Assembly: GCA_030447305.1 (NCBI GenBank)
Contig: JAUJPC010000002.1
Span: 384,927 to 448,926, forward strand
Origin: Actinomycetota bacterium
GTDB lineage: Bacteria > Actinomycetota > CADDZG01 > JAHWKV01
Length of the DNA stretch: 64,000 nt
Direction of reading: 5' to 3'
In this document: positions 29,872 to 64,000 of the stretch, one piece after another
Numbering within the stretch: the first letter of the stretch is position 1
Layout of the letters: each line of letters starts with the position of its first letter
Made by a program: the position numbers and the translations under genes
The notes under the pieces: model-generated
Seen by the model: the letters and a program-made list of their open reading frames with translations, nothing else
Told to the model about the DNA's origin: nothing
Databases searched by the model: none

Positions 29872-29952
29872 GAAAAGTCGGTGACCAACTATTACGGCTG
29901 CTTCGTTATACTAAGCTTAGTCACTTCAAAATAGGATAAATAGGCCACAGGA

Positions 29953-31104
29953 ATGACACCAAGCTCAGGGCAGGATTTACTCAAACAAGCCAAGGCTGCG
30001 GCGACGGCCCTGCCTCCGGACGAGGTTGCCCGCATCACCGAGGACGACAAGGTGACTCTCGTCGACGTTCGTGAGGGCGACGAGTGGCGCAGGGGCCACC
30101 TGCCCCACGCCGTCCACGTCCCCCGGGGTTACCTGGAGATGCAGGCGGAGTCCAAGGTGCCCGAAAAGGACGCTCCCATCATCGTTTACTGCGCCGGAGG
30201 CAACCGGTCCGCTCTGGCGACCGAGACCCTCAAACAGATGGGTTACACCGACGTGAGGCACATGAGCGGCGGGTTCACCGCCTGGCGAGACTCCGGCCTC
30301 GCGGTGGTAAAGCCCGTCGAGTGGACCGACAGGCAGATGGACCGCTACTCCCGGCATTTCGTGCTGCCCGAGGTGGGGGAGGCCGGACAGCAGAAAATCT
30401 TGCACGGGAAGGTGCTCGTCATAGGCGCCGGGGGGCTCGGCTCGCCGGCTCTGTACTACCTGGCAGCTGCCGGTGTGGGAACCCTTGGAATCGTCGACAT
30501 GGACGACGTCGAGGAAAACAATCTCCAGCGCCAGATCATTCATTCCACCGCCAAAGTCGGCATGAATAAGGCCGAGAGTGCAGGCAAGACCATCACCGAG
30601 CTCAATCCGGACGTGAAGATCGAGGTGCACAAGGAGAGGTTGACGCCCGACAACGTGGACGAGATCTTTGCCGGCTTCGACGTGGTGCTGGACGCCACCG
30701 ACAACTTCGGCACTCGGTACCTGATCAACGAAACCGCTCACAAGTACGGTATCCCGAGCATTTACGGGTCCATCTATCGATTCGAGGGCTACGCCAGCAC
30801 CTTCTGGCCGGCGAAGGGGGGACCGTGCTACCGGTGCATGCACCCGGAGCCGCCGCCGCCCGAGCTGGCCCCCACCTGAGGGGAAGCCGGCGTCCTGGGC
30901 GTGCTCCCGGGAGTGATTGGAGTCCTACAGGCCAACGAGGCGTTGAAGATCCTTGTGGGTTACGGCGAGCCGCTGGTTGGGCGCATCCTGACATTCGATG
31001 CCCAGACGACGGAGTTCGGCGAGCTGAAGCTGCGGAAGGACCCAAGCTGCTCTACCTGCTCGGTGCCGCCTCCGGCGCTCCAGCCGGTTGCGGTTGCTAG
31101 CTAG
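29953..31104 (+). CDS. rhodanese-MoeB/ThiF fusion sulfurtransferase with in-frame TGA at the active-site Cys position (selenocysteine candidate, or nonsense-interrupted)
   Basis: Track ORFs 29953..30879 and 30901..31104 share one frame, split by a single TGA at 30877-79; context CYRC...ELAPT-TGA-GEAGVLGVLPGVIG aligns with MoeB CYRC...ALTCVEAGVMAPLIGVIG; rhodanese Cys in VYCAGGNRS; ThiF Gly-rich loop and second CxxC. Confidence 0.6.
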
Positions 31105-51873: not shown

Positions 51874-52877
51874 GGCGACGTCTCCTTTCTGCTCGACGTG
51901 GTGGTCAAACAGAAGGATGCGTCGCCTCCAAGTTGAGTCGTGGATTTGCGACAGTGTCGCTACGTCTCGGAGATAGGACAGCCTAAGTCGGCTCCCTCAA
52001 CAGATGAAGCGTGGCGATGTCAGCCGTACTTCTGGGATCGCGTAGCCATGCCGCTCCCATACAGGCTTGCTTTCTGTGCGCCGGCGCCCGCCGGAGGTCT
52101 TGTGGCAGGGGAGTGAAGGCGACTGGATCCCCTGACAACTTAATGACGGCCGATAGAGCCGGGTTGGGGGGCAGGCTCAAGGGATCACCGCAACTCCCTT
52201 CGTCCGCTAGCCAGGTAGCCTGGCTGATTAGTCGCGCTGTTGCGGTGATCCCTTGACCCTGCCCAGTGGAGGTTAGGGAAGCGGATACGAACCGGGCGAT
52301 GACCGCCAGGGCCGGTGTTGCGGCTCCAAGCGCGGCGCCACAGCCGTCGGACGTGCCTAAACGAACTGCTCGACACGGCTGACAGGCTCCGCCAGCGGAG
52401 CGGGCGAGACACGTTCAGAGACGAGAACTGCTGAGCGAGGTCTTCTCAAGTGACGTCGGCTACCAGCGCCAGCCCGTCTACAAGACGATGAGGCGGATGA
52501 CAGCGCAGGAGGCCGACGGAGGACCGCCCGACTTCGAGCAACGGACGGCTGCGGGTCATCGCGAACGCGAAGCGATGACTGATCAGGATCAGGACCTACT
52601 TCCGGCATGGCGTTCGCGCCAGACAACACATCGCTAACACTCCGCACCCGGCGGGCGAGGGCCGCACCGGAGTGTCCGCCGGATCTCAAGCCGACGCCGA
52701 GCCGATGTCTGCTCACACACGTTCCCGGCACCCACGACGTCGAAGCCGTTGCCCGTCCGCCGGATAGGCTTGACCTCGTGATTCTCCCTGTTGCCTTCAC
52801 CGGCGGCGAGATCGGGGCCTGGCGGGTTGAGCGCATCGACGCTGTCGTAGGCGCACCGCTGCCCATCGTCTCGCGAC

Positions 52878-53321
52878 TTGGCATGGTGGAGGGGCAAAGG
52901 GCCATCGCCGCGACATCAACCTGGGTACTCGCGCGGAGTGACGAGCGACCAGCGCTACACGGGGCGGGCAGAGCACGAAGCTCTCGCCGCCAAGCAGGCG
53001 CAACTCGGGCGGTCGGAAGCGACCTGCGCCGCCCTCATCCCCATCACTAAGTCGGAGGCTTGGTGGGGGCTCACCCAGGACGAGCGGCGGGAAATCTTCG
53101 AGGAGCGCTCGCACCATATAGCCATCGGTTTGGAGTACCTGCCCGCAGTCGCTCGCCGTCTTCATCACGGCCGCGACCTTGGCGAAGCATTCGACTTCCT
53201 TACCTGGTTCGAGTACCCGGAGGAGAGCCGTGCTGCGTTCGAGGAGCTCGTCGCGCGTCTTCGATTGACGCCTGAGTGGGAGTTCGTGGAGCGGGAGATC
53301 GACATCCGTCTCACTCGGTAG
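52878..53321 (+). CDS. chlorite dismutase/HemQ family-like protein, possibly truncated
   Basis: C-terminal-domain-like pattern (IPITKSEAWWGLTQDERREIFEE...DFLTWFEYPEE); N-terminal half not found in frame. Confidence 0.4.
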   Translation: MAWWRGKGPSPRHQPGYSRGVTSDQRYTGRAEHEALAAKQAQLGRSEATCAALIPITKSEAWWGLTQDERREIFEERSHHIAIGLEYLPAVARRLHHGRDLGEAFDFLTWFEYPEESRAAFEELVARLRLTPEWEFVEREIDIRLTR

Positions 53322-53649
53322 CCCAAGGCCTCGACATTCACGGCACGCTCCGGCCGCGGCACGGGTCCGTCGCCACAACGCCCGAACCGCGAGCGGCTCG
53401 GGCGTCGACCTCACCGGGCCTGAGGACACCGGTTCGTATGGACTGTCATGAAGTGGAGCCGCGGTGTCTGAATTCACAGGATAGTGGACGGCAGGCTCAA
53501 CCGGCAGGGGGGAGCGCGCTTCTCGCCAGGACTTCGAGCGCGTATTGCCTGGATCTTCGATGGGCGGGCAAGAGACCCCGCTAGACAGTTGGCCTTTTAT
53601 CGAGGGGGGATCCTGGATCGCTGTTCGGCGAGGTTAACTCGATCCCGCG

Positions 53650-54396
53650 GTGAGGCAGCTCAAAACCGCACTCGGGAACGGAGCAGGAGCGGTCAACTCC
53701 GACGAGAACGTAGGCGGGGTTCTCAAACTGCTTGGCGGGGATCTACGTAATTCGGGACTGGCCTCAGCTTCCGACATTCCGCAGTTCGGGGTGGGCGCAG
53801 TCTCGGCACGGGAACTGGTGCAAGCCCTGAGGCTCGCTATACCTGGAGCCGAAGTCCAGATTCCAGTCATACGTCAAGGCAGTGGCGTACAGCGTCTCCT
53901 CCTGGTGTCGATCCTGCTTCGGCTTGCTCAATCCGGCGAGAACCCCTTGATTGGGCGCTTTGAAGAGCCGGAGGAAGCTCTAGAGCCTCTCAGGCAAACC
54001 CAGATGGCCAAGACGTTGGCCCAAATTGTGGGGCGTGGCGGACAAGTATTTGTCGTGACGCATTCCCCAGAGGTGGCTCGCGCCTTCTCAATCGATGACT
54101 TCCTCTTGCTTGAGGGGCGCTCGGCCGGGGGAGGTGCATCGGCTTCCCTGCCTGCCGGGCTTCGAGCCTGTAGCGAGGAACCACCAAGAGGGGTTTGCTC
54201 TGCCGGAGGAACTTGGCTACGTCCACCGCTGGCGGGAAATTGCCTTTCTCTTGGGGGACTAGCTCATCAGGTCATAGGTCTCCGAAGTAACCCGACGCAA
54301 CCAATGCTTCCGGCGAGTGGAGGTTCGGTGTGGCTGACCAGGACAATTTCGACAGCGCTGTGGAGCGGTTCCGCGAGGCTCTTCATGAGTACGTGA
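53650..54396 (+). pseudogene. C-terminal fragment of an ABC/AAA-type ATPase (OLD/RecF-like), N-terminal Walker A region missing
   Basis: Walker B/D-loop-like FEEPEEALEP and H-loop VFVVTHSPE; no upstream P-loop in any frame. Confidence 0.5.
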
Positions 54397-54557
54397 AGGG
54401 AGACCCACCAAGCAGTGATCGCATTCATGTCGCGACGCGACGACGTAACCCTCGCGCAGGCCCGGGCGGGGCGAGTGCTGGGTCTAGACCAATGTGGAGG
54501 AGCACCGCGCTGGTGAATAGATACCCCGAGCTCCAGTGAACCTCTGGTGGAATGTCG

Positions 54558-54573
54558 ATTAACCTCGGCTAAT
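54558..54573 (+). promoter_or_regulatory. candidate operator palindrome just upstream of DtxR-family gene start
   Basis: ATTAACCTCGGCTAAT, 12 of 16 positions palindromic, ends 8 nt before ATG. Confidence 0.3.
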
Positions 54574-54581
54574 CTCTCGAT

Positions 54582-55253
54582 ATGCCTGCTCATTCTCCCG
54601 CGGTTCAGGATTGCCTAAAGGCCATCTACATGCTCTCGATCGAGGGCGGCGAAGGGCACCCGGTCTCGACGCAGTCGCTGTCCGGCCGTCTGGGTATCAG
54701 CGCCGCGTCGGCCACGAACATGCTCAAGAAGCTGGCGTCTCTGGGCCTCGTGGATCACGTGAACTACCGCGGCGCGGAGCTGACGGAGCCGGGACGGAAG
54801 GTCGCGCTAGAGGTCATCCGCCACCACCGCTTGCTCGAGACCTATCTGGCCGAGGCGCTGGGGGTGCCCTGGGATCAGGTGCACGCGGAGGCCGAGGTGC
54901 TAGAGCATGTCTTGTCAGAGGACCTAGAGGACCGCATCGCCGCACGCCTGGGGAATCCGACGGTCGACCCCCACGGCCATCCCATCCCGGCCAAGGATGG
55001 GTCGATGCCGCTGCTATCGCAGCGGCGGCTGTGGGAAGCGGGGGCGGGTGAATCGGTCGCGGTCGACCGCGTGTCAGACGCAGACGCCGAGGCGCTTCGT
55101 TATCTGGCGGAGCTCGGCATCAAGCCCGGCTCGCGGTTACAAGTCATCGGCAGAGGCCCCGTCGGCGGGCCGCTGTTCGTGACCGTCGAGGACGGGACGC
55201 ACGAAGTGAGCGCGCTATCTAAGGAGATCTCGGAGGTCGTATGGGTCGCATAG
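54582..55253 (+). CDS. DtxR/IdeR/MntR family metal-dependent transcriptional regulator with C-terminal SH3-like domain
   Basis: N-terminal HTH (STQSLSGRLGISAASATNMLKKL), metal-site and dimerisation region, FeoA-like C-terminus. Confidence 0.85.
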   Translation: MPAHSPAVQDCLKAIYMLSIEGGEGHPVSTQSLSGRLGISAASATNMLKKLASLGLVDHVNYRGAELTEPGRKVALEVIRHHRLLETYLAEALGVPWDQVHAEAEVLEHVLSEDLEDRIAARLGNPTVDPHGHPIPAKDGSMPLLSQRRLWEAGAGESVAVDRVSDADAEALRYLAELGIKPGSRLQVIGRGPVGGPLFVTVEDGTHEVSALSKEISEVVWVA

Positions 55254-55712
55254 ACAGAAGGAGTTTCTTGAGACGCGCCGGCGCTTCCGGCGCTCTAGGT
55301 GGAGCCGCGGTGCTGGGGCAGGGACCCGCTCGTCGCGCAGGAGACGTCGCAGCATGATGCGCAGGACTCGTCTTCGGTGCACCCACTCACGGCCACGGCT
55401 ACGGCGCCGTCGGCCGCGTTGACTACGCCCGCAACGGCTTCACGCCGCAGGAGCTCCTCACGGAGTTCGACACCGGAGCGATCTCGAGAGACAGACCGGA
55501 CGAACGTCCGCGAGTTCGAGATCCCCGCCGTCGACAAAGAGATTGAGGTCGCGCCCGGCGCCTTCTTTCCGGCTTGGACCTTTAACGGCCGCGTCCCCGG
55601 CGCCAGCCTCCGCGCCGCCGAACGAGACCGCGTTCGCGTCACGCTGACGAACGCCTGCGCCCACCCCCACACGATGCACTTCCCACGGCATACACCCGTC
55701 CGAGAACGTTAA
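55241..55712 (+). pseudogene. multicopper oxidase N-terminal fragment with Tat signal, frameshifted and truncated
   Basis: Tat motif RRSFLRRAGASGALGGAAV in one frame, in-frame stop about 55355, then cupredoxin domain 1 in another frame (VPGASLRAAERDRVRVTLTN...HTMHF). Confidence 0.55.
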
Positions 55713-55769
55713 AACGCGGTCGCTTGCTTCAACTCTGGGGCGATCGCGCGACCCCCTACATCGGGCCGG

Positions 55770-56231
55770 TCAGCGTTCTGATCCCACGGCCCAAACCTCC
55801 CAGTCGTCATTTGAGATGCGCTGGCCATAGATGTCAGTGGCGTCGGTGATAACGAAGTCAAGTTCGTCGTCGGAACAGCGCGGTTCGACGTCGTTGTCAC
55901 AAGGTGGATCCTCAGAGTGCAGTGCTCGGTCGAGGGTCACTCGCGCTGTCGTCCCTTCGTTGATCAACACCACGCTCGAAGCCTCGTGGGAGTGGGGAGT
56001 GTCATGGTCCCAATGCGGAGCGTGGAAGACCCGAAGCACGGGATCCGTCATCGTTGAAGAAAGGGGGTTGTTGAACGTGACATCGACCACCTTCGAATCC
56101 TGCACCCGCACTGATTTCAGCTGAAATGCTGGCACCGTCGAGCCAGAGTGTCCTTGAGCGATGCCACTACCGGCGAGAACGGATGCAACTGTCGCTGACG
56201 CTAACAAAGCCTTGCTAAAGGTCTTCAACAT
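55770..56231 (-). CDS. secreted His-rich protein, hypothetical (possible metal-binding)
   Basis: Signal peptide; HAPHWDHDTPHSHE. Confidence 0.45.
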   Translation of the reverse strand: MLKTFSKALLASATVASVLAGSGIAQGHSGSTVPAFQLKSVRVQDSKVVDVTFNNPLSSTMTDPVLRVFHAPHWDHDTPHSHEASSVVLINEGTTARVTLDRALHSEDPPCDNDVEPRCSDDELDFVITDATDIYGQRISNDDWEVWAVGSER

Positions 56232-56311
56232 TCTCTTCTTACCTCCTATTGCGATTAGGGATCTATGTGCATGCTTTGAATCATTTCGACCACAGGGCGG
56301 CCCTTCACGCC

Positions 56312-57451
56312 TCAGGGAGGTGCGCTGATCACGCTGCGTGAGTCTGCGTGTTCCACCGGCGGCTCGTGATCAAAGGCCCACCGGGACTCGGGGCGATGGA
56401 TCAGCCGGCGGGTCGGCGAGGGAGACGGGTTAGTGCTGACGGCCGGAGAGGTCGAGAACATCAGCCAACTCAGAGTGAGCCCCATCAGACTCGCTGCGAC
56501 GACTGTGCCCATCCACAACTCCAAGGGCCAGACCGCCCCGTATAATGTAGCCAACACCCAGAAGTAGGCGCTCCACGTCCCCAGCGGAACAACTGCAGCA
56601 AGGAAGTGAACCCGCTCCCCCGGACGCCCGTCGAAGCGCCACAAGAGCAGATCGGCGAGCAGGCCGCCGAGGCTGGCAGCGGCGACCAAACCGCCCAGAG
56701 CGAAACCGTTCAGAGCGCTCATCAGAATGGCGACGACCGTAAACAGCATGGTCGCGCTCCCCTGCGGCGGGATCCATCGACGCATAAGGACCAAGAGGGG
56801 GGCGAGCAGCAAGAGAGTGGTTAGGAGGATTCCGCCAACGCGAGTCATAAGCACCACCTCATTCGCGCCTGACAGGGTCGCAGGGGATTCCTGCACGAGG
56901 TTTGCTTCCGACCAGCTCACGAACGGAGATAGATACTGCAGGTAGTAGGCAACGAACGCCGTCGTGAACGATAGGGCAAGCAGCCCCGGCAGCAGCCTGC
57001 TGAACGAAACCTCGCGCCCGATGCTGCTATCCAGCCACATCGCCCGAAGCGGAGTCGTCAGCACCAGAACCGTCCCAGCGAACGGCAGTACATGAAAAGT
57101 GCTGAGTACTCGAGCAAGCCCGGTCTCGACGCCGAACACCACATGCCATAGGGCATCGCCCGCAACGCCAAGACCCGCGATCGCCATACCTGCCACCGCT
57201 ACCCCATATCCCTGTGGCAGCCGAGAGAACCGAAATCGAAAAGGTCGCTGGTTACACGTGAGAATCGAGATGCCGCCTCCGAGGAACCCGGCGTACATCA
57301 TCGTGTGCCACGGCTCAAGGAAGGGAGCCAGCTTGGTTTCCAGGTTCAAGTGCGCCCAGCCGTCCAGGAACAGCCCGCCTACTGTGACAACGGCGAAAAC
57401 CGCTAGAACCAGGTGGTTACGCCAAGACGCCAGGGGGCCGTTATTAGTCAT
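56312..57451 (-). CDS. polytopic membrane protein, hypothetical (possible metal-related transporter)
   Basis: About 10 predicted TM segments; start set to ATG at 57451; palindromic sites in promoter. Confidence 0.55.
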   Translation of the reverse strand: MTNNGPLASWRNHLVLAVFAVVTVGGLFLDGWAHLNLETKLAPFLEPWHTMMYAGFLGGGISILTCNQRPFRFRFSRLPQGYGVAVAGMAIAGLGVAGDALWHVVFGVETGLARVLSTFHVLPFAGTVLVLTTPLRAMWLDSSIGREVSFSRLLPGLLALSFTTAFVAYYLQYLSPFVSWSEANLVQESPATLSGANEVVLMTRVGGILLTTLLLLAPLLVLMRRWIPPQGSATMLFTVVAILMSALNGFALGGLVAAASLGGLLADLLLWRFDGRPGERVHFLAAVVPLGTWSAYFWVLATLYGAVWPLELWMGTVVAASLMGLTLSWLMFSTSPAVSTNPSPSPTRRLIHRPESRWAFDHEPPVEHADSRSVISAPP

Positions 57452-57464
57452 CAAAAATCCTTTT

Positions 57465-57502
57465 ATTTAGTATGCTAAATATTATGTTTAGAGTACCCTA
57501 AA
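57465..57502 (-). promoter_or_regulatory. two AT-rich inverted repeats (ATTTAG-N4-CTAAAT and TTTAG-N6-CTAAA) upstream of the membrane protein gene; candidate metalloregulator operators
   Basis: Perfect 5-6 bp arms, 14-50 nt upstream of start codon; resemble TTAG...CTAA core of DtxR-family boxes. Confidence 0.35.
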
Positions 57503-58186
57503 TCATTGCCGCAGCGTATGTCAATGCCACGTTGGAGGCAGATGCGGTCGAAGGGACTCGGTCGACGCAGTCGATCGACTCGCGGAACGTTGAGGGAGCA
57601 CCATCGCAGCTCTATTGCCCCCGTGGTCGTTCGGCTTCGCCTCGTCCAGCCACCTCCCCAGCCGCCGGCCTGTTTCACTTAGCAGCGCCGCTCTCCCGAG
57701 GAGCAGGGTTAGGCAGCAAGGCAGGCGGGTCGATCCACTCGGAAGCCTTAGGCCGCAGGGTTACTCCGACAGCTTGATCTCGTAGTTGTGGGTAGGTCTA
57801 GCGGGGGGCGGCGAGGGTGGATCAAAGGAAGATCCGTAGGCCGCAACGAGGCGGTCATGCGGAATTCCAAATTACACTGATCGGTGAAGCCGCCGAAGGC
57901 CTCAGGCAGACGACGTTCATGGTCTTCTGTGAATGTGGCTATGCGGGGTGCCGCGAGAAGGTCGAGGTCGATCTTAGTGACTACGAACGGGTGCGCGCCC
58001 ACCCCCGCCGATTCAACAGGGAGCGAGGCGAGGGAACGTTCACGTGAAGTCTGACCAGACAGCTCCTCGAGTCATCTCCTTCTGGGTGCTCGCCGCCATG
58101 CTCACACTCTTCCTGTTCGCGGCCAGCGCTTGTGGGGTGCCAAAACCCCGATTTCCCACGCTAGGCGGCACAGTCGTACTCGTGAA

Positions 58187-59001
58187 TCAGCCCACCGAGG
58201 ATGTCGCGGCGTTCCAGTCGAAGCGCACCGCGGCGCTCCGGCGGGTCGCCTCGTGACTTGGGTATCTTGAGATCGAGTCCCCGAGAGGCCGTTCCCGACC
58301 GTAGTGATCAACGTAGCCCCGCAACACCCGTTCAAGGTGGCGCCGGCTGCGGATCAGAATCTCGTCCAAGCATTCGCTTCGAACGGTTAGGACCCAACGC
58401 TCCGCGAAAGCGTTCGCTCGAGGTGCCCGGTACGGCGTGCGGATGATCTGGATACCCTCGGACACGCATAGCTCGTCAAAGGGACCGGTGAACTTGCAAT
58501 CCCGGTCGTGGATCAGAGATCGTGGGGAAACGAATCGTCGTCCCGAGCGATGAACAGATTCCTTGCCTGCTGGGTCACCCATGTCGGGGGTGGGCAGTTA
58601 TCCCGGCCATATGGACCTTGCCGGGTGGAAAGCTCGATGAAGAACAAGACGTACAAGGTCTTGAGCCAGACCGTCTCAACGGTGAAGAAGTCGGTGGCGA
58701 TAATCCCGTGCGCCTGAGCGCGCAAGAACTCCGACCAGCTCGGCCCATCCCGACGGGGAGCCGGCTGCAGTCCGTGATCCTTCAAAACCCGCCGGACCGT
58801 GGAGGTCCCCACCCGGATACCCAGCTTGTGAAGTTCACCCTGGATTCGCATGTAGCCCCAGCGTGGTGAAAGAACTAGGGGCGGTGAATGAATCTCGGAT
58901 GAACGGTTGGTCTTCAGACACCACTGCCGCGGACGTAGCCCTGGTTGCTGCCAGAAAGCCTGCCAGAGTCGGCGGGGGAGCAGCTGAGCGCAGGTCACCA
59001 A
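58187..59001 (-). mobile_element. DDE transposase (rve integrase core) remnant, frameshifted into two ORFs
   Basis: ORFs 58513..59001 and 58187..58582 together give WGYMRIQGELHKLG...DFFTVET...IHDRDCKFTG...AFAERWV...YVDHYGRERP; no intact N-terminal HTH found. Confidence 0.6.
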
Positions 59002-59142
59002 TACTGTCGATCAGCCGCAGAGTACTTCGGCCGTTTGACCTGCCCGGCGCAGGATCGCGAGCTGGTGCCGCAAGACGGCGATCTCAACGTCCTTGTGAGC
59101 GTCGGATCCGGGGCGCCCGAACAGAAGCCAGAACGTTCGGCC

Positions 59143-59174
59143 GACGATGACATATAGAGACGATGACATATAGA
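59143..59174 (+). repeat. perfect tandem duplication of a 16 nt unit (GACGATGACATATAGA x2)
   Basis: Read directly; lies just outside the transposase remnant. Confidence 0.8.
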
Positions 59175-59597
59175 AAGGTAAGGGTCATCGGGCGATTATC
59201 GCTGTCAGCCGAGTTTTTGAACCTTACGGGCCGGAGGAAACGCCGGAGCGTGCGGCCAAGCGCGTCGCAGCCGAAGCCGGAAGAAACTTGGCTAATACCG
59301 TTCGCGCACCCTTTCTGCGGCACACAGACTGGGACCGGAGCGCGCGTTAACTGCGGGGGAGAGGGTGCTCCAGGACATGATTACGAGCCTTATCACCCGA
59401 ATCGGCGGGAGGTGGCGCTCCATAACTGCCCATTTAACGAGCTCGCGCGTCAGGCGTCAGACTTGGTGTGTGGGATGAACCATGCATTCTTGAAGGGTCT
59501 GACCAAGGGCCTGGGTAGTGAGTCCGTGCAGGTTTTGCTGGAGCCGTCCGAGGTGGAGTGCTGTGTACGACTTCGTTTGCCTGAATCGTCAAAGGGC

Positions 59598-60071
59598 TCA
59601 GGGGCCTAGGAAGAGGCCGAGGATAACGCCGTAGACCACGTGCGCGATGAATGTAACCAGGGCCGTTTCCTTGCCGTAGTTGAGGGCGAACAGGCCCGGA
59701 GGCTCCAGAACCCCACCGAGCCTAGGTCCTGCGCGCTCTGAAGCCATTCGGGGATGGATCCCGGGGAGCAACGGGATGAGCAGTGTCAGCGCAGCAAGAC
59801 CGTGGAAGGCTCCGAACATTGCACCGAGCCACCAAGATGCGTTTCCAAGATTGTCGAAGGCTGCCAAATAGAACACTGCGAAGAACTGACCCACCAGCAA
59901 ATGTACAAAAAATCCGGCCACCCGTGCTCGGTCGGCGTCGCCGACAACCAGAGTGCCCAGCATCATGGGCAGATCCATCCGAGTGAGACCAGCCAGCTGA
60001 GCAGCGACCATGATTCCGGTCAGGGCAATAGTGGCGCCGAATCCGAATGTTGCCCATCCCGACCAGTCCAT
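59598..60071 (-). CDS. small membrane protein, hypothetical
   Basis: Four hydrophobic segments; start overlaps GH15 stop by 1 nt. Confidence 0.5.
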   Translation of the reverse strand: MDWSGWATFGFGATIALTGIMVAAQLAGLTRMDLPMMLGTLVVGDADRARVAGFFVHLLVGQFFAVFYLAAFDNLGNASWWLGAMFGAFHGLAALTLLIPLLPGIHPRMASERAGPRLGGVLEPPGLFALNYGKETALVTFIAHVVYGVILGLFLGP

Positions 60072-61888
60072 CAGTTTCGCTCCAAAAGGTCGGTGGTGGA
60101 TCGCGATTCGTCTGACGCCTTGTCAATTGCGATGGCGGCCTGAACCAGTGCCGCGTGGGTAAGTGCCTGGGGGAAGTTCCCTAGCAGCTCACCCGTCAGC
60201 GGATTGATCTCCTCGCTAAATAGACCCAGATCGTTGGCGAAGGTCAACAGCTGATCGAACAGCGCCGTCGCCTGGTCCAGCTCCCCCTGGCGCGCGAGCG
60301 CTTGAACTAGCCAGAACGAGCAAGGAAGAAACGCCCCCTCGTCACCCTCCATCAGGTCAGCCCCCGGTGGGTAACGGTAAATAAGTCCCCTTCCGGCACT
60401 GAGTTGGTCTTGGATTGCCGACACTGTACCCTCGATCCGGCGCGATCCTTGTTCCTCAAATTCGAGCATTGGCAACAGCAGCAGAGCGGCGTCGAGATGC
60501 CTGGAGCCGTAGCTCCAAACGTATGAGTTCATCTCGGTGTTGAAACCCTTGCTCTTGATGTCGGCCGCTAGCAGCTCCGCCTGCTCCCGCCAGACCCGTA
60601 ACTGAGACGGACGGGCGCCTTGCGACGTCGCCATTTTCACTGCTCGATCGAGCGCCAGCCATCCCATCAGTTTCGAGTGAACGTGGTGTGCGGGCTCCCC
60701 ACGAACCTCCCATATGCCGGCATCGGGAAGTCGCCAGCTACGAGCGACGTAGTCGGCGAACGCTCGAAGCGCTCGCCATGCCTCTCTCCCGAGTTTTTGG
60801 CCCGATTGGGTCATCAACCAAGCCGCATCAACGACCCACCCGTATACGTCCAGCTGATGCTGTTCGCTTGCAGCGTTGCCGACCCTAACGGGGCGGCTGC
60901 CTCTATAACCGCTTGCTTCACTAACCTCTCGTTCAGCCGGTCCTGGCTTGCCGTGAACTGTGTAGAGAACGTCCATCCGGGGATGGGTGAGCCGGCTGGC
61001 ATGGGTAAGCCAATGCATGAAGGAGTGCGCCTCCTCCTGCTTGCCCGCCGCCAAGAAGGCGGCTACTCCGATGCTCGCATCCCGAGGCCACGAGAAGCGA
61101 TAGTCCCAGTTGCGCCCGCCGCCCAACACTTCGGGGAGAGAGGTGGTCGGCGCGGCCACCGGAGCGCCAGAAGGGGAGTAGGTCAGCAACCGAAGAGTGA
61201 TTAGGCTGCGCTGGACCGCATCCCTGAAAGGGCCATGGTAGAGCAACTCTGACGACCACTGACGCCACCACGACGTTGTGCGCGCAAGGTGCCTGCCCGC
61301 CGTCTCACTGCTCAGCAAGACCACTGGCGATCGATCCGCCAAGGCGAGGTGAAACGTAATCTCTTCGTCGGAGTCAAGCTGAACCTCGAGTTCCCGCCCA
61401 GGTTCGAACACCATCTCAGGGGTAGTAGACAAGCCGATCGCCAGTGACCCCCATGAGCAGATAAGGGCACCGTGGCGTTTTTCAGATCGTGGAGGAAGAC
61501 CCTTCAAGCTGCGCCGGGGATCGAACAGGATACGAAGCGAGACCGAGCCACTCATGCAGCGGACCGTCCTCACAAGAAGCGCCTGAGGCAGCAACGTTCC
61601 GCTCAACTCTAAAATCATCGCATCGGTGAGCACGGCTCGACCCGTACTCGTCTCCCACTTGGTGTCAAGGACGGCGGAACCAGGGCGATAAGCGCGAGAT
61701 GCCGAATAAGGGTCCGTAGGAGTGATTTCGAAACATCCTGCACGTTCGCCCCCGACTAGTCGCCCAAAAACCGGCTCGGAATCGAACCTGGGCAGGCACA
61801 ACCAATCGATCGAACCGGCGAGCGAGCACAGAGCAGCTGATCGCGTGTCACCGATCAATGCGTAATCACTTATCGATGGTTGATTCAT
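60071..61888 (-). CDS. glycoside hydrolase family 15 (glucoamylase/trehalase-like)
   Basis: N-terminal YALIGDTRSAALCSLAGSIDWLCLPRFDS and (alpha/alpha)6 catalytic domain pattern. Confidence 0.8.
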   Translation of the reverse strand: MNQPSISDYALIGDTRSAALCSLAGSIDWLCLPRFDSEPVFGRLVGGERAGCFEITPTDPYSASRAYRPGSAVLDTKWETSTGRAVLTDAMILELSGTLLPQALLVRTVRCMSGSVSLRILFDPRRSLKGLPPRSEKRHGALICSWGSLAIGLSTTPEMVFEPGRELEVQLDSDEEITFHLALADRSPVVLLSSETAGRHLARTTSWWRQWSSELLYHGPFRDAVQRSLITLRLLTYSPSGAPVAAPTTSLPEVLGGGRNWDYRFSWPRDASIGVAAFLAAGKQEEAHSFMHWLTHASRLTHPRMDVLYTVHGKPGPAEREVSEASGYRGSRPVRVGNAASEQHQLDVYGWVVDAAWLMTQSGQKLGREAWRALRAFADYVARSWRLPDAGIWEVRGEPAHHVHSKLMGWLALDRAVKMATSQGARPSQLRVWREQAELLAADIKSKGFNTEMNSYVWSYGSRHLDAALLLLPMLEFEEQGSRRIEGTVSAIQDQLSAGRGLIYRYPPGADLMEGDEGAFLPCSFWLVQALARQGELDQATALFDQLLTFANDLGLFSEEINPLTGELLGNFPQALTHAALVQAAIAIDKASDESRSTTDLLERN

Positions 61889-61971
61889 GCCTCACCGGCC
61901 TCGAGCAACAGAAGCAATCTCCTCGGTTGCAGTTCTACTACTAAAGTCCATTATCGATAGATATTTGAGCA

Positions 61972-63228
61972 GTGCTAACGTGGAGCGCCCCGGACATCGA
62001 GGCAGAGGCCCGAGCGTGGCTCTGTAATAAGAGATCAAGGAGGATGATGCCTGGACGTCTTAGCGAAAACATGCTGCGGGCCGCACAAACATCCAATTTG
62101 GATACTCCCGCACGTAGAGCAATGGGCTTGCTTTACCGGCGACTGCTTGAGCTCGGTTTATGGCGCCACATTCGCTCCGTCGGTGGCGCCGTCACAATTG
62201 GGGCTGGAGGTGCGCATTTTACATCGGAAGACAACAGAGCATTCCTGGATGACCTGCTCATTACCGGTAGGTTCTGTCGCGACACTCCCGGTGGCGGACT
62301 GTTGCATCATGGCCAGATCTCGTTACGAGAGATCACCGATGGCCCCGGTCTACACCTTTCTCTTGATGACGACAACCGAATCTATGTCCACATCGACCGC
62401 ATCTCCCCTGCAGTTGGGATCACCCCCGACGGCACGTGCCGGTACGATCGCCTCCGATCGTTGCAACATATGCGACGAGAGGTCTTTCCTCTCGTCATGC
62501 GGTCTTACCGTTCCGACTTTGACGAAACAAAAAAAGATCGGCGAGCGCGGCTAGAACTCTACGACGCACAGCGGGCGTGGTGCGAAGCGGTCGAGGCCGA
62601 TCGTAAGGAAGAGTCAATAGAGGCTGGAGTCAGGCTTGCTGGTCTTCTTGCTGTTGAAAAAGAGAGCGCTCGGAGAATGGCTCAGAAGCTGTATCAGCTA
62701 GCCATTGATTCCGGCCATGAGGATTTTGCACCGGCCGCCGCCTTTGGTCTCGGCACCCTTCTGGAGGAAAGGAACGAGACGGCCCAGGCACAAGAAGCCT
62801 ACGAGCGAGCCCAGGCGTCGGGACATCCCGAGTTCGGGCCCTTGGCCGCATACAACCTGGGGATTCTCTTCGAAAGGCTTGAGCAATTTGATCGTGCAAA
62901 GGAAGCCTTAGGGCAAGCCATCCTTTTTGGCCATCCCGACATCACTTCATGGGCAGCCTTAAAGCTCGGCGACCTTCTGGCGGCATTAGGAGAACATGAG
63001 GATGCGCTTTACAGTTTCGAGCTGGTGATTTATTTGCGTCATCCGGAGTACGCGTCGTTAGGTGCGATTAGCGCAGCTAAACTTCTTGCTGATCTGGGCA
63101 AACACGACCGGGCCAGGGCGGCATATGAGCAAGCCATCGGGCTCGGCCCGGCCGATACAGCGAGAATCGCGGCCGAAGAAGCCGAACAACTTGAACGCAT
63201 GGCGAATCAGGATTTACGGACGAATTGA
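61972..63228 (+). CDS. TPR repeat-containing protein
   Basis: C-terminal half has TPR-like repeats (AAFGLGTLLEERNETAQAQEAYERA, AAYNLGILFERLEQFDRAKEAL). Confidence 0.5.
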   Translation: MLTWSAPDIEAEARAWLCNKRSRRMMPGRLSENMLRAAQTSNLDTPARRAMGLLYRRLLELGLWRHIRSVGGAVTIGAGGAHFTSEDNRAFLDDLLITGRFCRDTPGGGLLHHGQISLREITDGPGLHLSLDDDNRIYVHIDRISPAVGITPDGTCRYDRLRSLQHMRREVFPLVMRSYRSDFDETKKDRRARLELYDAQRAWCEAVEADRKEESIEAGVRLAGLLAVEKESARRMAQKLYQLAIDSGHEDFAPAAAFGLGTLLEERNETAQAQEAYERAQASGHPEFGPLAAYNLGILFERLEQFDRAKEALGQAILFGHPDITSWAALKLGDLLAALGEHEDALYSFELVIYLRHPEYASLGAISAAKLLADLGKHDRARAAYEQAIGLGPADTARIAAEEAEQLERMANQDLRTN

Positions 63229-63291
63229 GGTTGACTGCTGTACTGGTTATGCAAATGGAGCCGAAGCACCTAAGAAGGGGCAGTAATCGTC

Positions 63292-64000
63292 GTGCGATTG
63301 ACCACAAGAATCGAGCAGATGGAATCTGTCGACCCCTTCGCACGCCTCGTCCAAAAACTCGTCTCCCGGGCAGTCCCACAGCAGTCGCTCCAAAAGGACC
63401 TGCTCAGCGGCACTTGGATAGGCCGTCCACTTCATCCGATACTCACAGATGTCGTGATCGGTACCTGGATCAGCGCTTTCTTGCTCGACTTGCTTTCTGA
63501 CGAGCGCACGGAAAGAGCGGCGGATCGGCTCCTGTCCATCGGCAATGTGTCAGCGCTTCCCACGATTGCGGCCGGCTTATCCGACTGGTCGGACCTTTGG
63601 GGGGCTCAGCAACGTGTGGGATCGGCTCATGCATTAGGCAATACGGCGGCTCTTTGCCTTCAAATCTTGTCCTCAAGAGCTCGTAAGAATGGCAGCCGCA
63701 AGGCAGCGAAGCTGTTGACACTTGCCGCCGTCGGCATTGGCGGAGGATCCGCCTACCTGGGCGGACACCTCTCCTTCGTAAATGGGGTTGGGGTGAACCG
63801 GACGGCCTTCGAAGCATGGCCTCAGGAGTGGATGCCGGTGATCGCCGACGACGACCTCCCCGAGGGCACCCTTATCGAGTCCAAGGTGAATGAGGTGCGC
63901 GTCCTGCTCTACAAGGAAGGAGAGGAGATTTATGCGCTCTCCGATAGGTGTACTCATCGGGGATGCCGCCTTCACCTTGGTCAGGTCAAAGACTTGAGCG
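63292..64000 (+). CDS. membrane protein with C-terminal Rieske [2Fe-2S] domain, 3'-partial
   Basis: Open frame to window end from GTG 63292 (AAGGGG upstream); hydrophobic N-terminal region; Rieske box CTHRGCRLH at window edge. Confidence 0.6.
   Translation, partial: MRLTTRIEQMESVDPFARLVQKLVSRAVPQQSLQKDLLSGTWIGRPLHPILTDVVIGTWISAFLLDLLSDERTERAADRLLSIGNVSALPTIAAGLSDWSDLWGAQQRVGSAHALGNTAALCLQILSSRARKNGSRKAAKLLTLAAVGIGGGSAYLGGHLSFVNGVGVNRTAFEAWPQEWMPVIADDDLPEGTLIESKVNEVRVLLYKEGEEIYALSDRCTHRGCRLHLGQVKDLS

What the first reader, a model, noticed from the sequence alone, without database searches (positions are those of the whole stretch)
54558..57502. DtxR-family regulator with candidate operator palindromes at its own start and in a nearby membrane-protein promoter
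A 16 nt near-palindrome (ATTAACCTCGGCTAAT) ends 8 nt before the regulator start codon. Two perfect-arm inverted repeats (ATTTAG-tatg-CTAAAT and TTTAG-agtacc-CTAAA) sit 14-50 nt upstream of the polytopic membrane gene 2 kb away, in an AT-rich patch. All share the TTAG...CTAA core of DtxR/IdeR/MntR boxes. Together with the His-rich secreted protein and the multicopper oxidase remnant between them, this suggests a metal-homeostasis regulon inside the island.
Basis: inference. Interest (0 to 1): 0.45.

Follow-up and report, generated by a model that had tools for sequence, protein, structure and literature searches.

The report
Manganese-sensor repressor with its operator sites
The regulator is a manganese-type DtxR-family repressor, and two of the three flagged palindromes are real copies of its known kind of operator: one on its own promoter, one on the promoter of a nearby uncharacterised metal-handling operon. 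This is a correct but fairly ordinary finding.

Summary
All three palindromes sit at the stated coordinates.

- **Regulator:** the gene at 54582-55253 encodes a three-domain DtxR-family protein of the Mn-sensing branch. Its closest relatives are the PDB 5zr4 protein and D. radiodurans DR2539, and all seven DR2539 metal ligands are conserved.
- **Motif across relatives:** 53 of 80 related regulator loci carry TTAG-N6-CTAA just upstream of the regulator gene. In the Actinomycetota group it lies at -23 to -25 from the ATG, where its right arm doubles as the -10 box of a probably leaderless promoter.
- **Known operator:** the crystallised DR2539 operator, ATTTTAGTCGCGCCTAAAATA, is the same motif.
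- **Window scan:** a matrix built from those sites puts the two best hits in the 64 kb window on the flagged positions. These are 57484-57505 (canonical) and 54555-54576 (one arm degenerate, TTAA).
- **Membrane-gene site:** it is conserved in four other loci, three of which have no regulator gene in the fetched flank.
- **Third palindrome:** 57465-57480 has a 4-nt spacer and does not fit the motif. Its role is unresolved.
- **Target operon:** it encodes a 10-helix membrane protein with an invariant His/Asp/Glu cluster (no Pfam model) and a secreted protein with a predicted CopC-like fold.
- **Regulator cassette:** the usual partners (multicopper oxidase plus a ZupT-like permease) are largely deleted here.

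This is a new member of a known kind, and interest is moderate to low.

The parts
54547..54575 (+). Inferred promoter of the regulator gene. -35 GTGGAA (54547-54552), 17-nt spacer, -10 TAATCT (54570-54575), then 6 nt to the ATG. This implies a leaderless mRNA; there is no Shine-Dalgarno sequence.
   Evidence: 32 Actinomycetota orthologous loci show the same layout: TTGnnn, about 17 nt, TAAAnT, 6-7 nt, ATG. The strict sigma-70 scan found nothing. No transcription-start data; inference.
54555..54576 (.). Operator O_R on the regulator's own promoter. Core TTAACCTCGGCTAA, 54559-54572. The right arm overlaps the -10 box; the left arm is degenerate (TTAA instead of TTAG).
   Evidence: Second-best matrix hit in the window, 12.3 bits, below the training minimum of 15.6. 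It corresponds in position to TTAGTCTCGGCTAA in L006 and to sites in 53 of 80 loci.
54582..55253 (+). Gene for a 223-aa Mn-type DtxR-family metalloregulator (MntR/DR2539-like).
   Evidence: Pfam PF01325, PF02742 and PF04023. PDB 5zr4 at E 1.5e-52 and DR2539 (8pvt) at E 5.7e-44. Best NCBIfam model is Thermus-type MntR, 228 bits, below its 350-bit cut-off. DR2539 ligands D11, H79, E83, H98, E102, E105 and H106 are all conserved. The recognition helix SAASATNMLKKL is identical to that of most orthologues whose own promoters carry the motif.
55241..55712 (+). Pseudogene remnant of a two-domain multicopper oxidase with a twin-arginine signal. Frameshifted and 3'-truncated. In relatives this is the first gene after the regulator in the same operon.
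   Evidence: PF07732 hit. 75% DNA identity to L006 5983-7149, with about 3.3 kb of L006 (7149-10409) absent from the window. The oxidase follows the regulator in 31 of 80 loci.
55770..56231 (-). Gene for a 153-aa secreted protein with a histidine cluster and a predicted CopC-like beta-sandwich. Second gene of the regulated operon.
56312..57453 (-). Gene for a 379-aa polytopic membrane protein of an uncharacterised family with no Pfam model. It carries an invariant D30, H34, H49, D99, H103, E109, H120 cluster.
57464..57481 (.). Proximal palindrome O2, TATTTAG-TATG-CTAAATA: 7-nt perfect arms with a 4-nt spacer between the TTAG and CTAA cores. Does not fit the canonical geometry; role unresolved.
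   Evidence: arms. Matrix score -5.4 bits in the centred frame. Its centre lies 22 bp from the O1 centre, where L001 has TTAG-N6-CAAA and L086 has TTAG-N6-CTAG. Conserved as such only in the near-identical L087. As RNA the hairpin is no better than shuffles.
57484..57505 (.). Distal operator O1 of the membrane operon. Core TTAGAGTACCCTAA, 57488-57501: canonical TTAG-N6-CTAA.
   Evidence: Best matrix hit in the window, 16.4 bits. Orthologous promoters in L001/L002 (25.9), L006 (21.8), L086 (22.4) and L087 (18.5) carry it with conserved arms and a free spacer.
57495..57524 (-). Inferred promoter of the membrane operon. -35 TTGACA (57524-57519), 18-nt spacer, -10 TAGGGT (57500-57495) overlapping the promoter-proximal arm of O1.
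   Evidence: TTGACA is present in all five orthologous promoters. A TAnnnT hexamer 17-18 nt downstream overlaps the operator in four of them; in L001 the operator fills the spacer. Inference; the strict scan was negative.

Best explanation
The gene at 54582-55253 encodes a manganese-sensing repressor of the DtxR family, MntR/DR2539 type. A metal-loaded dimer recognises the palindrome (A/T)TTAG-N6-CTAA(A/T).

**Two operators.**
- O_R (54555-54576) overlaps the -10 box of the regulator's own, probably leaderless, promoter. This gives negative autoregulation of the regulator and originally also of a downstream oxidase and ZupT-like permease, now mostly deleted.
- O1 (57484-57505) overlaps the -10 region of the promoter of a two-gene operon 2 kb away. 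That operon encodes a 10-helix membrane protein with a His/Asp/Glu cluster and a secreted CopC-fold protein with a histidine cluster.

When Mn(II) is sufficient, the repressor blocks RNA polymerase at both promoters. Under Mn limitation both are released.

**Shown.**
- Family, domains and conserved metal ligands of the regulator.
- The motif's tight association with this regulator clade.
- Its identity with a crystallised operator.
- Its conservation at both promoters.

**Inferred.**
- Promoter elements and leaderless transcription.
- Repression rather than activation.
- Mn as the effector.
- That the adjacent regulator, rather than a paralogue with the same recognition helix, occupies O1.
- The operon's function: metal capture or uptake at the outer face of the membrane, for Mn or Cu.
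For: **Regulator.**
- Three DtxR-family domains.
- Closest solved relatives are 5zr4 and DR2539.
- All seven N-terminal and dimerisation-domain ligands listed for DR2539 are conserved, including Asp and Glu where DtxR/IdeR have Met10 (from my own knowledge) and Cys102 (IdeR alignment).

**Motif and regulator clade.**
- 53 of 80 orthologous loci have TTAG-N6-CTAA upstream of the regulator gene. In 32 Actinomycetota loci it lies at -23 to -25 from the start codon.
- In 954 kb of fetched loci, TTAG-Nk-CTAA occurs 61 times for k=6 and 0-3 times for every other k from 0 to 13.
- Only 12 further sites of >=15 bits exist in 903 kb. They lie upstream of Nramp, a ZnuA-type binding protein, the two-domain oxidase and this membrane operon.

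**Experimental anchor.** DR2539 was crystallised on, and shifts, ATTTTAGTCGCGCCTAAAATA from the mntH promoter (bioRxiv 10.1101/2024.02.12.579695, Table S5). That sequence scores 29.0 bits on my matrix. Binding needs Mn(II) or Fe(II) (PMC3327659).

**Regulator and site change together.** A sister clade with the helix TPGSVSAM has TTGGCATGCCAA upstream instead. Loci with the window's helix SAASATNM have TTAG-N6-CTAA.

**In the window.**
- The two flagged sites are the two best matrix hits in 64 kb.
- O1 is conserved in five promoters with invariant arms and a free spacer. This includes L001, L086 and L087, where no regulator gene lies within the fetched flank.

**Neighbourhood.** Nramp in 15 loci, ZnuA-type in 7, a CDF in 30, and the oxidase plus ZupT-like protein in about 30. 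These are typical Mn-homeostasis genes (review PMC9334652).
Against: - No binding, expression or transcription-start data exist for this organism, which is an uncultured Actinomycetota MAG lineage.
- O_R has TTAA where 98% of training sites have TTAG. It scores 12.3 bits, below the weakest training site (15.6), so autoregulation may be weak or lost.
- The regulator's cassette is decayed here: oxidase pseudogene, ZupT-like gene and divergent CDF absent. The regulator may be on its way out.
- In MAG YX2bin24 the same operon, 98.8% identical, has no adjacent regulator. Adjacency is therefore not needed, and a paralogue may be the real occupant of O1.
- The matrix was trained on sites picked with a regular expression, so its core columns are circular. 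The position constancy, the spacer-length spike and the DR2539 operator are independent of that.
- DR2539 also responds to Fe(II) in vitro, so Mn specificity is not proven.
- The 4-nt-spacer palindrome is unexplained.
- Relatives of both target proteins lie in copper or heavy-metal loci, and the secreted protein has a CopC-like fold. The operon may therefore handle Cu rather than Mn.
Confidence: 0.75

Rival explanations
1. The sites are genuine MntR-type operators, but the regulator that acts at the membrane-operon promoter is a second MntR paralogue elsewhere in the genome. The adjacent copy is a decaying remnant with a weakened operator of its own.
For: - In YX2bin24 the 98.8%-identical operon has no neighbouring regulator. 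That genome's MntR (L015, 67% identical, same recognition helix) lies about 60 kb away beside a ZnuA-type gene.
- L001 and L086 also carry the site with no regulator in the fetched flank.
- The window's cassette has lost the oxidase C-terminal half and the ZupT-like gene, and O_R is sub-threshold.
Against: - The adjacent gene is full length with every ligand and the consensus recognition helix intact.
- L006 shows the same regulator-operon adjacency, so it looks ancestral.
- The two models are not exclusive, because identical helices would read the same site.
Confidence: 0.25
2. The regulator is an iron sensor (IdeR/DtxR type) and the sites are iron boxes, so the regulon is about iron.
For: - It belongs to the DtxR family and has the SH3-like/FeoA domain that IdeR also has.
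- IdeR structures hit at E about 1e-24.
- DR2539 binds DNA with Fe(II) as well as Mn(II) in vitro (PMC3327659).
Against: - Cys102 is replaced by Glu (IdeR alignment) and Met10 by Asp (from memory of DtxR), as in DR2539.
- There is no match to the 19-bp iron box TTAGGTTAGGCTAACCTAA at up to 3 mismatches anywhere in the window.
- The sites are single 14-16-bp palindromes, not the double overlapping palindrome.
- Orthologues sit next to Nramp, ZnuA-type and CDF genes. My family scans and tally did not look for siderophore genes.
- The NCBIfam DtxR equivalog scores 95 bits against a 290-bit cut-off, compared with 228 bits for the MntR model.
Confidence: 0.08
3. The palindromes upstream of the membrane gene are bound by a different regulator: the ArsR-like HTH_20 protein that neighbours this operon in L001 and survives as a remnant at 59382-59573.
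For: - An HTH_20 gene is linked to the operon in L001. A C-terminal remnant lies upstream in the window, and at 98.8% identity in L087.
- The 4-nt-spacer palindrome does not fit the MntR motif and could belong to another protein.
Against: - The 6-nt-spacer site is the motif of the MntR clade and of DR2539.
- The HTH_20 gene is truncated in the window and in L087, yet the palindromes are kept.
- No similar palindrome lies upstream of the intact HTH_20 gene in L001 (read by eye).
- This could still account for O2 alone.
Confidence: 0.07
4. The palindromes are chance features of AT-rich promoter DNA in a GC-rich genome and have no operator function.
For: - The patch 57455-57510 is AT-rich, where short A/T palindromes are easier to get.
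- About 9 sites with one mismatch to the 8-base core are expected per window (my estimate), so O_R taken alone is not significant.
- The 16-mer at 2 mismatches is not enriched: 7 found against 4.8 expected.
Against: - Exact TTAR-N6-CTAA: these two loci against 0.24 expected.
- They are the two top matrix hits.
- Position conservation in dozens of loci, invariant arms with a free spacer, and the k=6 spike.
Confidence: 0.03

Closest known systems
DR2539, the Mn sensor of Deinococcus radiodurans, and its operator in the dr1709 (mntH) promoter (PDB 8PVT, 8PVZ, 8PW0)
   Same: - DtxR-family protein with DNA-binding, dimerisation and ancillary domains.
- About 58% identity over the first 148 residues.
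- Identical set of metal ligands.
- Operator ATTTTAGTCGCGCCTAAAATA is the TTAG-N6-CTAA palindrome found here.
- Acts as a repressor of an Mn importer gene.
   Different: - Recognition turn differs: DR2539 has A37-P38-A39 and G43, where this protein has S-A-A and N.
- Different phylum.
- The targets here are the regulator's own leaderless promoter and an uncharacterised operon, not mntH.
- O_R carries TTAA in one arm.
PDB 5zr4/5zr6 'Metal-dependent transcriptional regulator'; from my own knowledge this is Mycobacterium tuberculosis MntR (Rv2788)
   Same: Best solved sequence relative, E 1.5e-52 over residues 8-222, covering all three domains. Actinobacterial Mn-responsive DtxR-family repressor.
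   Different: - The helix sequence differs: GVSASTASESIRKL against GISAASATNMLKKL.
- I could not retrieve its operator. PMC5157835 is not held, so site similarity is untested.
IdeR/DtxR iron-dependent repressors and the 19-bp iron box
   Same: Same family and domain set. From established structures (my knowledge), each IdeR/DtxR dimer also spans TTAG...CTAA arms about 10 bp apart, so the arm sequence and spacing are family traits.
   Different: - Iron box: two overlapping palindromes bound by two dimers. Here: single palindromes.
- No match at up to 3 mismatches.
- The sulfur ligands Met10 and Cys102 are replaced by Asp and Glu.
Bacillus subtilis / E. coli MntR (two-domain, about 140-155 aa)
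   Same: Mn-sensing branch of the same superfamily. Repress Mn importers (PMC9334652).
   Different: - They lack the C-terminal SH3-like/FeoA domain present here.
- Weak sequence match: E 1e-9 to 1e-12 in PDB, and NCBIfam 48-61 bits against cut-offs of 138-153.
CopC/CopD-type copper uptake pairs (YcnJ, YobA-YebZ)
   Different: - No sequence match to the CopC or CopD Pfam families, even at E 5.
- The membrane protein's fold has no significant PDB match.
- The CopC-like hits share the list with generic Ig-like domains, and the model's pLDDT is only 76.
- Regulation here is by an Mn-type sensor.

Membership tests
DtxR family of metalloregulators | N-terminal winged-helix DNA-binding domain (PF01325) | tested here: met
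   53.9 bits against a 26-bit cut-off, residues 7-65.
DtxR family of metalloregulators | Metal-binding and dimerisation domain (PF02742) | tested here: met
   106.1 bits against a 27-bit cut-off, residues 68-136.
DtxR family, three-domain subgroup (IdeR, DtxR, DR2539, ScaR/SloR; M. tuberculosis MntR by my own knowledge) | C-terminal SH3-like/FeoA domain | tested here: met
   PF04023, 59 bits against a 23-bit cut-off, residues 150-222.
Mn-type (MntR/DR2539) branch | Primary-site ligands Asp, Glu, Glu, His (no Met or Cys) plus His79, Glu83 and His98 equivalents | tested here: met
   Alignment to DR2539 and IdeR, with the DR2539 ligand list from PMC6300522: D10, H, E, H, E, E, H all present. IdeR Cys102 aligns with Glu. 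Met10 of DtxR is from memory.
Mn-type (MntR/DR2539) branch | Operator is a TTAG-N6-CTAA palindrome with A/T flanks | tested here: met
   O1 is exact (16.4 bits). O_R has one core mismatch (12.3 bits). The DR2539 operator scores 29.0 bits on the same matrix.
Mn-type (MntR/DR2539) branch | Mn(II)-dependent DNA binding and repression | not testable with these tools
   Needs EMSA or footprinting and expression data.
NCBIfam equivalog 'manganese-dependent transcriptional regulator MntR' (NF047407) | Score at or above the curated 350-bit cut-off | tested here: not met
   228.3 bits. It is the best-matching model, but the protein is not an equivalog. It is a related subfamily.
IdeR/DtxR iron regulon | 19-bp iron box TTAGGTTAGGCTAACCTAA | tested here: not met
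   0 matches at up to 3 mismatches in the window. By my own count, the best alignments to O_R match only 11-12 of 19 positions.
IdeR/DtxR iron regulon | Met10 and Cys102 ligands; NCBIfam DtxR equivalog | tested here: not met
   Asp and Glu at those positions (Met10 from memory). NF053665 scores 95.1 bits against a 290-bit cut-off.
CopC (for the 153-aa secreted protein) | CopC sequence family or fold with a copper site | tested here: inconclusive
CopD (for the membrane protein) | CopD family membership (PF05425) | tested here: not met
   No Pfam hit of any kind at E<=5. No significant structural match.

The most novel reading that the evidence does not exclude
The operon under O1 could be a previously undescribed metal-acquisition module. 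It would consist of a new 10-helix membrane family (at least 3,588 cluster representatives, no Pfam model, seven invariant residues that I infer face outward) working with a CopC-fold secreted partner.

In this lineage an Mn sensor controls it, together with a multicopper oxidase and a ZupT-like permease. In Pseudonocardia a homologue lies beside csoR-copZ-copA, behind what reads as a CsoR-type box. The novel reading is an Mn-limitation response that recruits copper handling, either to load an oxidase used in Mn/Fe uptake or as a new Mn importer.
Probability: 0.3. Interest if true: 0.6.

Novelty: new member of a known kind. Interest (0 to 1): 0.35.

Why it matters
It gives a clean, testable regulator-operator-target assignment in an uncultured Actinomycetota lineage.

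- It extends the DR2539-type operator (TTAG-N6-CTAA) from Deinococcus to many Actinomycetota, Chloroflexota and Armatimonadota genomes.
- It shows a compact promoter design in which one operator arm also serves as the -10 box of a leaderless promoter.
- Its main practical value is a regulatory handle on two protein families of unknown function: a large membrane family with an invariant His/Asp/Glu cluster, and a CopC-fold protein with a histidine cluster. This points both towards metal homeostasis.

The regulator and operator are themselves of a known type.

Tried and rejected
- **IdeR iron-box scan:** no hit at up to 3 mismatches.
- **Rfam, 52-60 kb at E<=1:** nothing, so no Mn riboswitch.
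- **RNA hairpin role for the 4-nt-spacer palindrome:** -3.6 kcal/mol, z +0.9, rejected.
- **Generic sigma-70 scan:** no hit under its strict rules. The promoter calls therefore rest on comparison between loci.
- **Generic inverted-repeat finder:** lists only the 4-nt-spacer palindrome. The other two have arms shorter than its seed.
- **Other 16-mer matches:** TTTAG-N6-CTAAA at 2 mismatches is not enriched. The extra 1-mismatch match at 54604-54619 lies inside the coding sequence, where the codons for D-C-L-K create CTAAA, and is absent in L006. I treat it as chance.
- **Failed look-ups:** the 100%-identical protein P0001 is not on record, so the source contig was not fetched. The M. tuberculosis MntR paper PMC5157835 is not held.
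- **More distant membrane homologues:** P0003, P0004 and P0011 have no motif upstream. The regulation is therefore specific to the close clade.
- ** caveat:** No conclusion except the rounded 58% identity figure rests on that alignment. Ligand calls use.
- **HTH_20 neighbour as the binding protein:** considered and set aside for the 6-nt-spacer sites.

Full report
**1. What is in the sequence**

| Site | Coordinates | Sequence | Note |
|---|---|---|---|
| O_R | 54558-54573 | ATTAACCTCGGCTAAT | ends 8 nt before the ATG at 54582 |
| O2 | 57465-57480 | ATTTAGTATGCTAAAT | perfect arms are 7 nt, 57464-57481 |
| O1 | 57487-57502 | TTTAGAGTACCCTAAA | |

O2 and O1 lie 11-49 nt upstream of the ATG (57453-57451) of a minus-strand membrane gene. 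They sit in an AT-rich patch of a window that is 63% G+C.

Two details need correcting:
- The first site's left arm is TTAA, not TTAG, and only 6 of 8 positions pair.
- The spacer between the TTAR and CTAA cores is 6 nt in the first and third sites but 4 nt in the second.

**2. The genes**

- **54582-55253 (+):** a 223-aa protein with all three DtxR-family domains.
- **55241-55712 (+):** a frameshifted, truncated multicopper oxidase gene with a twin-arginine signal.
- **56231-55770 (-):** a 153-aa secreted protein with the cluster FHAPHWDHDTPHSHE.
- **57453-56312 (-):** a 379-aa polytopic membrane protein. Neither of these last two proteins matches any Pfam or NCBIfam model.

The last two genes form a conserved pair in L001/L002 (69% and 75% amino-acid identity), L006 and L087.

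**3. Which kind of DtxR protein**

- The best solved relatives are 5zr4 (E 1.5e-52; M. tuberculosis MntR by my own knowledge) and D. radiodurans DR2539 (8pvt, E 5.7e-44). IdeR, DtxR, SloR, ScaR and the two-domain MntRs come far behind.
- The best NCBIfam model is a Thermus-type MntR, but at 228 bits it is below its 350-bit cut-off. The DtxR model scores 95 against 290.
- The DR2539 ligands Asp11, His79, Glu83, His98, Glu102, Glu105 and His106 (PMC6300522) are all conserved in the alignment.
- IdeR's Cys102 aligns with Glu. DtxR's Met10 (from my own knowledge) corresponds to Asp10.

This is the hard-ligand, Mn-type branch.

**4. Is the palindrome this regulator's operator?**

I fetched 80 loci encoding relatives 48-83% identical.

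*Position.* In 53 of them TTAG-N6-CTAA lies just upstream of the regulator gene. In the Actinomycetota group (L006-L036, L038) it starts at -23 to -25 from the start codon. A TTGnnn hexamer sits about 17 nt upstream of a TAAAnT hexamer formed by the right arm, and 6-7 nt separate that hexamer from the ATG. That is the geometry of a leaderless promoter with the operator on top of its -10 box. The window has the same layout: GTGGAA, 17 nt, TAATCT, 6 nt, ATG, with no Shine-Dalgarno sequence.

*Closest relative.* L006 (83% identical) has TTAGTCTCGGCTAA where the window has TTAACCTCGGCTAA.

*Spacer length.* In 954 kb of fetched DNA, TTAG-Nk-CTAA occurs 61 times for k=6 and 0-3 times for every other k from 0 to 13.

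*Covariation.* A sister clade (Solirubrobacterales) has the recognition helix TPGSVSAM instead of SAASATNM. It carries TTGGCATGCCAA upstream instead. So regulator and site change together.

*Published anchor.* DR2539 was crystallised on, and shifts, ATTTTAGTCGCGCCTAAAATA from the mntH promoter (bioRxiv 10.1101/2024.02.12.579695, Table S5). Binding needs Mn(II) or Fe(II) (PMC3327659). That oligonucleotide scores 29.0 bits on my matrix, whose training median is 25.8.

**5. The window's sites against that motif**

A symmetrised 22-nt matrix has the consensus AAATTTAGCCGCGGCTAAATTT. Scanned over the 64 kb, it gives the following.

| Rank | Coordinates | Bits | Mean hits per shuffled window at that score |
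|---|---|---|---|
| 1 | 57484-57505 | 16.4 | 0.01 |
| 2 | 54555-54576 | 12.3 | 0.135 |
| 3 | 29913-29934 | 10.8 | not computed |

The core columns of the matrix are circular, because the sites were chosen with a regular expression. The independent evidence is in section 4.

O_R scores below the weakest training site (15.6 bits). It has A at a position where 98% of sites have G.

**6. The membrane-operon site is conserved**

| Locus | Core sequence | Bits |
|---|---|---|
| L001/L002 | TTAGTCATGACTAA | 25.9 |
| L086 | TTAGCTTAAGCTAA | 22.4 |
| L006 | TTAATCTCACCTAA | 21.8 |
| L087 | TTAGTGTGATCTAA | 18.5 |

All four orthologous promoters carry the site. The arms are invariant and the spacer varies freely.

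All five promoters have TTGACA. In four, a TAnnnT hexamer 17-18 nt downstream overlaps the operator arm. In L001 the operator fills the spacer. Both layouts suit repression by blocking RNA polymerase.

L001, L086 and L087 have no regulator gene in the fetched flank, so this operon behaves as a regulon member controlled in trans.

In the other loci, the remaining strong sites lie upstream of Nramp (L045), a ZnuA-type binding protein (L080) and the two-domain oxidase (L051).

**7. The 4-nt-spacer palindrome**

- It scores -5.4 bits in the centred frame.
- Only three TTAG-N4-CTAA instances occur in 954 kb, one of them the near-identical L087 copy.
- Its centre is exactly 22 bp from the O1 centre. 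At that position L001 has TTAG-N6-CAAA and L086 has TTAG-N6-CTAG. The position looks like an auxiliary operator that has been remodelled in this lineage.
- An RNA hairpin role is not supported.

I leave it unresolved. It may be a decayed second site, a non-canonical site, or a site for another protein.

**8. Context and decay**

Typical locus: in about 30 Actinomycetota loci the regulator is followed by a two-domain multicopper oxidase and a 400-aa ZupT-like membrane protein, with a divergent CDF upstream. Elsewhere Nramp (15 loci) or ZnuA-type genes (7 loci) follow.

Window compared with relatives:
- It matches L006 at 75% over the regulator plus the N-terminal half of the oxidase.
- It matches L006 again at 90% over the secreted-protein and membrane genes.
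- About 3.3 kb in between is missing.
- To the right of 55749 it is 98.8% identical to MAG YX2bin24. There a chlorite-dismutase-like gene directly follows the operon and no regulator is adjacent.

Insertion-sequence fragments (58187-59001) and a truncated ArsR-like gene (59382-59573) lie upstream. The region is a mosaic with pseudogenes. 'Island' is plausible but not shown.

**9. What the target operon may do**

*Membrane protein.*
- D30, G31, W32, H34, H49, Y53, D99, W102, H103, G107, E109 and H120 are invariant in 37 sequences.
- The structure model is confident: pLDDT 87, pTM 0.85.
- The family is large: 3,588 cluster representatives.
- By the positive-inside rule the invariant cluster faces outward. 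This is my inference.

*Relatives in other genomes.* A Pseudonocardia homologue of the membrane protein sits beside csoR-copZ-copA, with ATACCCCGTGGGGGTAT 25 nt upstream (calling it a CsoR-type box is my reading). A Streptomyces homologue of the secreted protein lies among heavy-metal genes.

The operon therefore handles a metal at the cell surface. Whether that metal is Mn or Cu is open.

**10. Verdict**

The system is an MntR/DR2539-type repressor with one degenerate autoregulatory operator and one canonical operator on a neighbouring operon of unknown function. It is a new member of a known kind. The more novel content lies in the uncharacterised target proteins.

Noticed in passing
window 55241-55712; L006 6001-8909 and about 30 other loci (L007-L036): A conserved cassette in uncultured Actinomycetota: a divergent CDF, then the Mn-type regulator, a two-domain multicopper oxidase with a twin-arginine signal, and a 400-aa ZupT-like membrane protein. 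It resembles an oxidase-plus-permease uptake system under Mn control. The window keeps only the regulator and a broken N-terminal half of the oxidase.
   Followed up: partly
window 55749-64000 against L087; window 53004-53317: The right 8.3 kb of the window is 98.8% identical to MAG YX2bin24 (JAUJNI010000002.1). Identity stops 21 nt beyond the secreted-protein gene. To the left only a 72%-identical chlorite-dismutase-like fragment matches. This marks a recombination or rearrangement junction.
   Followed up: partly
window 59163-59609 (match 59382-59573) and 58187-59001: A C-terminal remnant of an ArsR-like HTH_20 regulator with a Cys-rich tail. The gene is intact next to the same operon in L001. 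In the window it is separated from the operon by integrase/transposase fragments (rve_3, HTH_21).
   Followed up: partly
L037, L049, L052, L054, L061, L073 (also L041, L042, L046, L060, L072, L079), about 20-60 nt upstream of the regulator start: Solirubrobacterales relatives of the regulator have a different palindrome, TTGGCATGCCA(A/T)A, and a changed recognition helix (TPGSVSAM in place of SAASATNM). This is a clean case of regulator and operator changing together.
   Followed up: partly
L090 3950-3990 (Pseudonocardia sp., JBHSIR010000087.1): A 36%-identical homologue of the membrane protein lies next to csoR-copZ-copA. ATACCCCGTGGGGGTAT sits about 25 nt upstream of its start. I read this as a CsoR-type copper box, so the family would be under a copper sensor there.
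   Followed up: no
window 55770-56231; L088, L089: The secreted protein's predicted fold resembles the copper chaperone CopC. The mature N-terminus is probably His (cleavage at AQG|H), as in CopC histidine-brace sites. Homologues in Streptomyces tailanensis lie among HMA ATPase, MerR, MerB and carbonic anhydrase genes.
   Followed up: partly
window 56312-57453; proteins P0189-P0337: The membrane protein belongs to a large family with no Pfam model: 3,588 representatives at E<=1e-3 and 1,425 at E<=1e-30. Some members are 580-640 aa, with an insert after about residue 200.
   Followed up: partly
window 29913-29934: Third-best matrix hit, 10.8 bits, AAGCTTAGTCACTTCAAAATAG (TTAG-N6-CAAA). It lies 19 nt upstream of a rhodanese-ThiF gene (29953-30879) and after a luciferase-like monooxygenase gene. 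Probably chance.
   Followed up: partly
window 52000-54540: The stretch upstream of the regulator holds only fragments: a chlorite-dismutase-like C-terminal piece (52878-53321) and the C-terminal part of an AAA_15/AbiEii-type ATPase (53650-54396). This suggests a decayed region.
   Followed up: no
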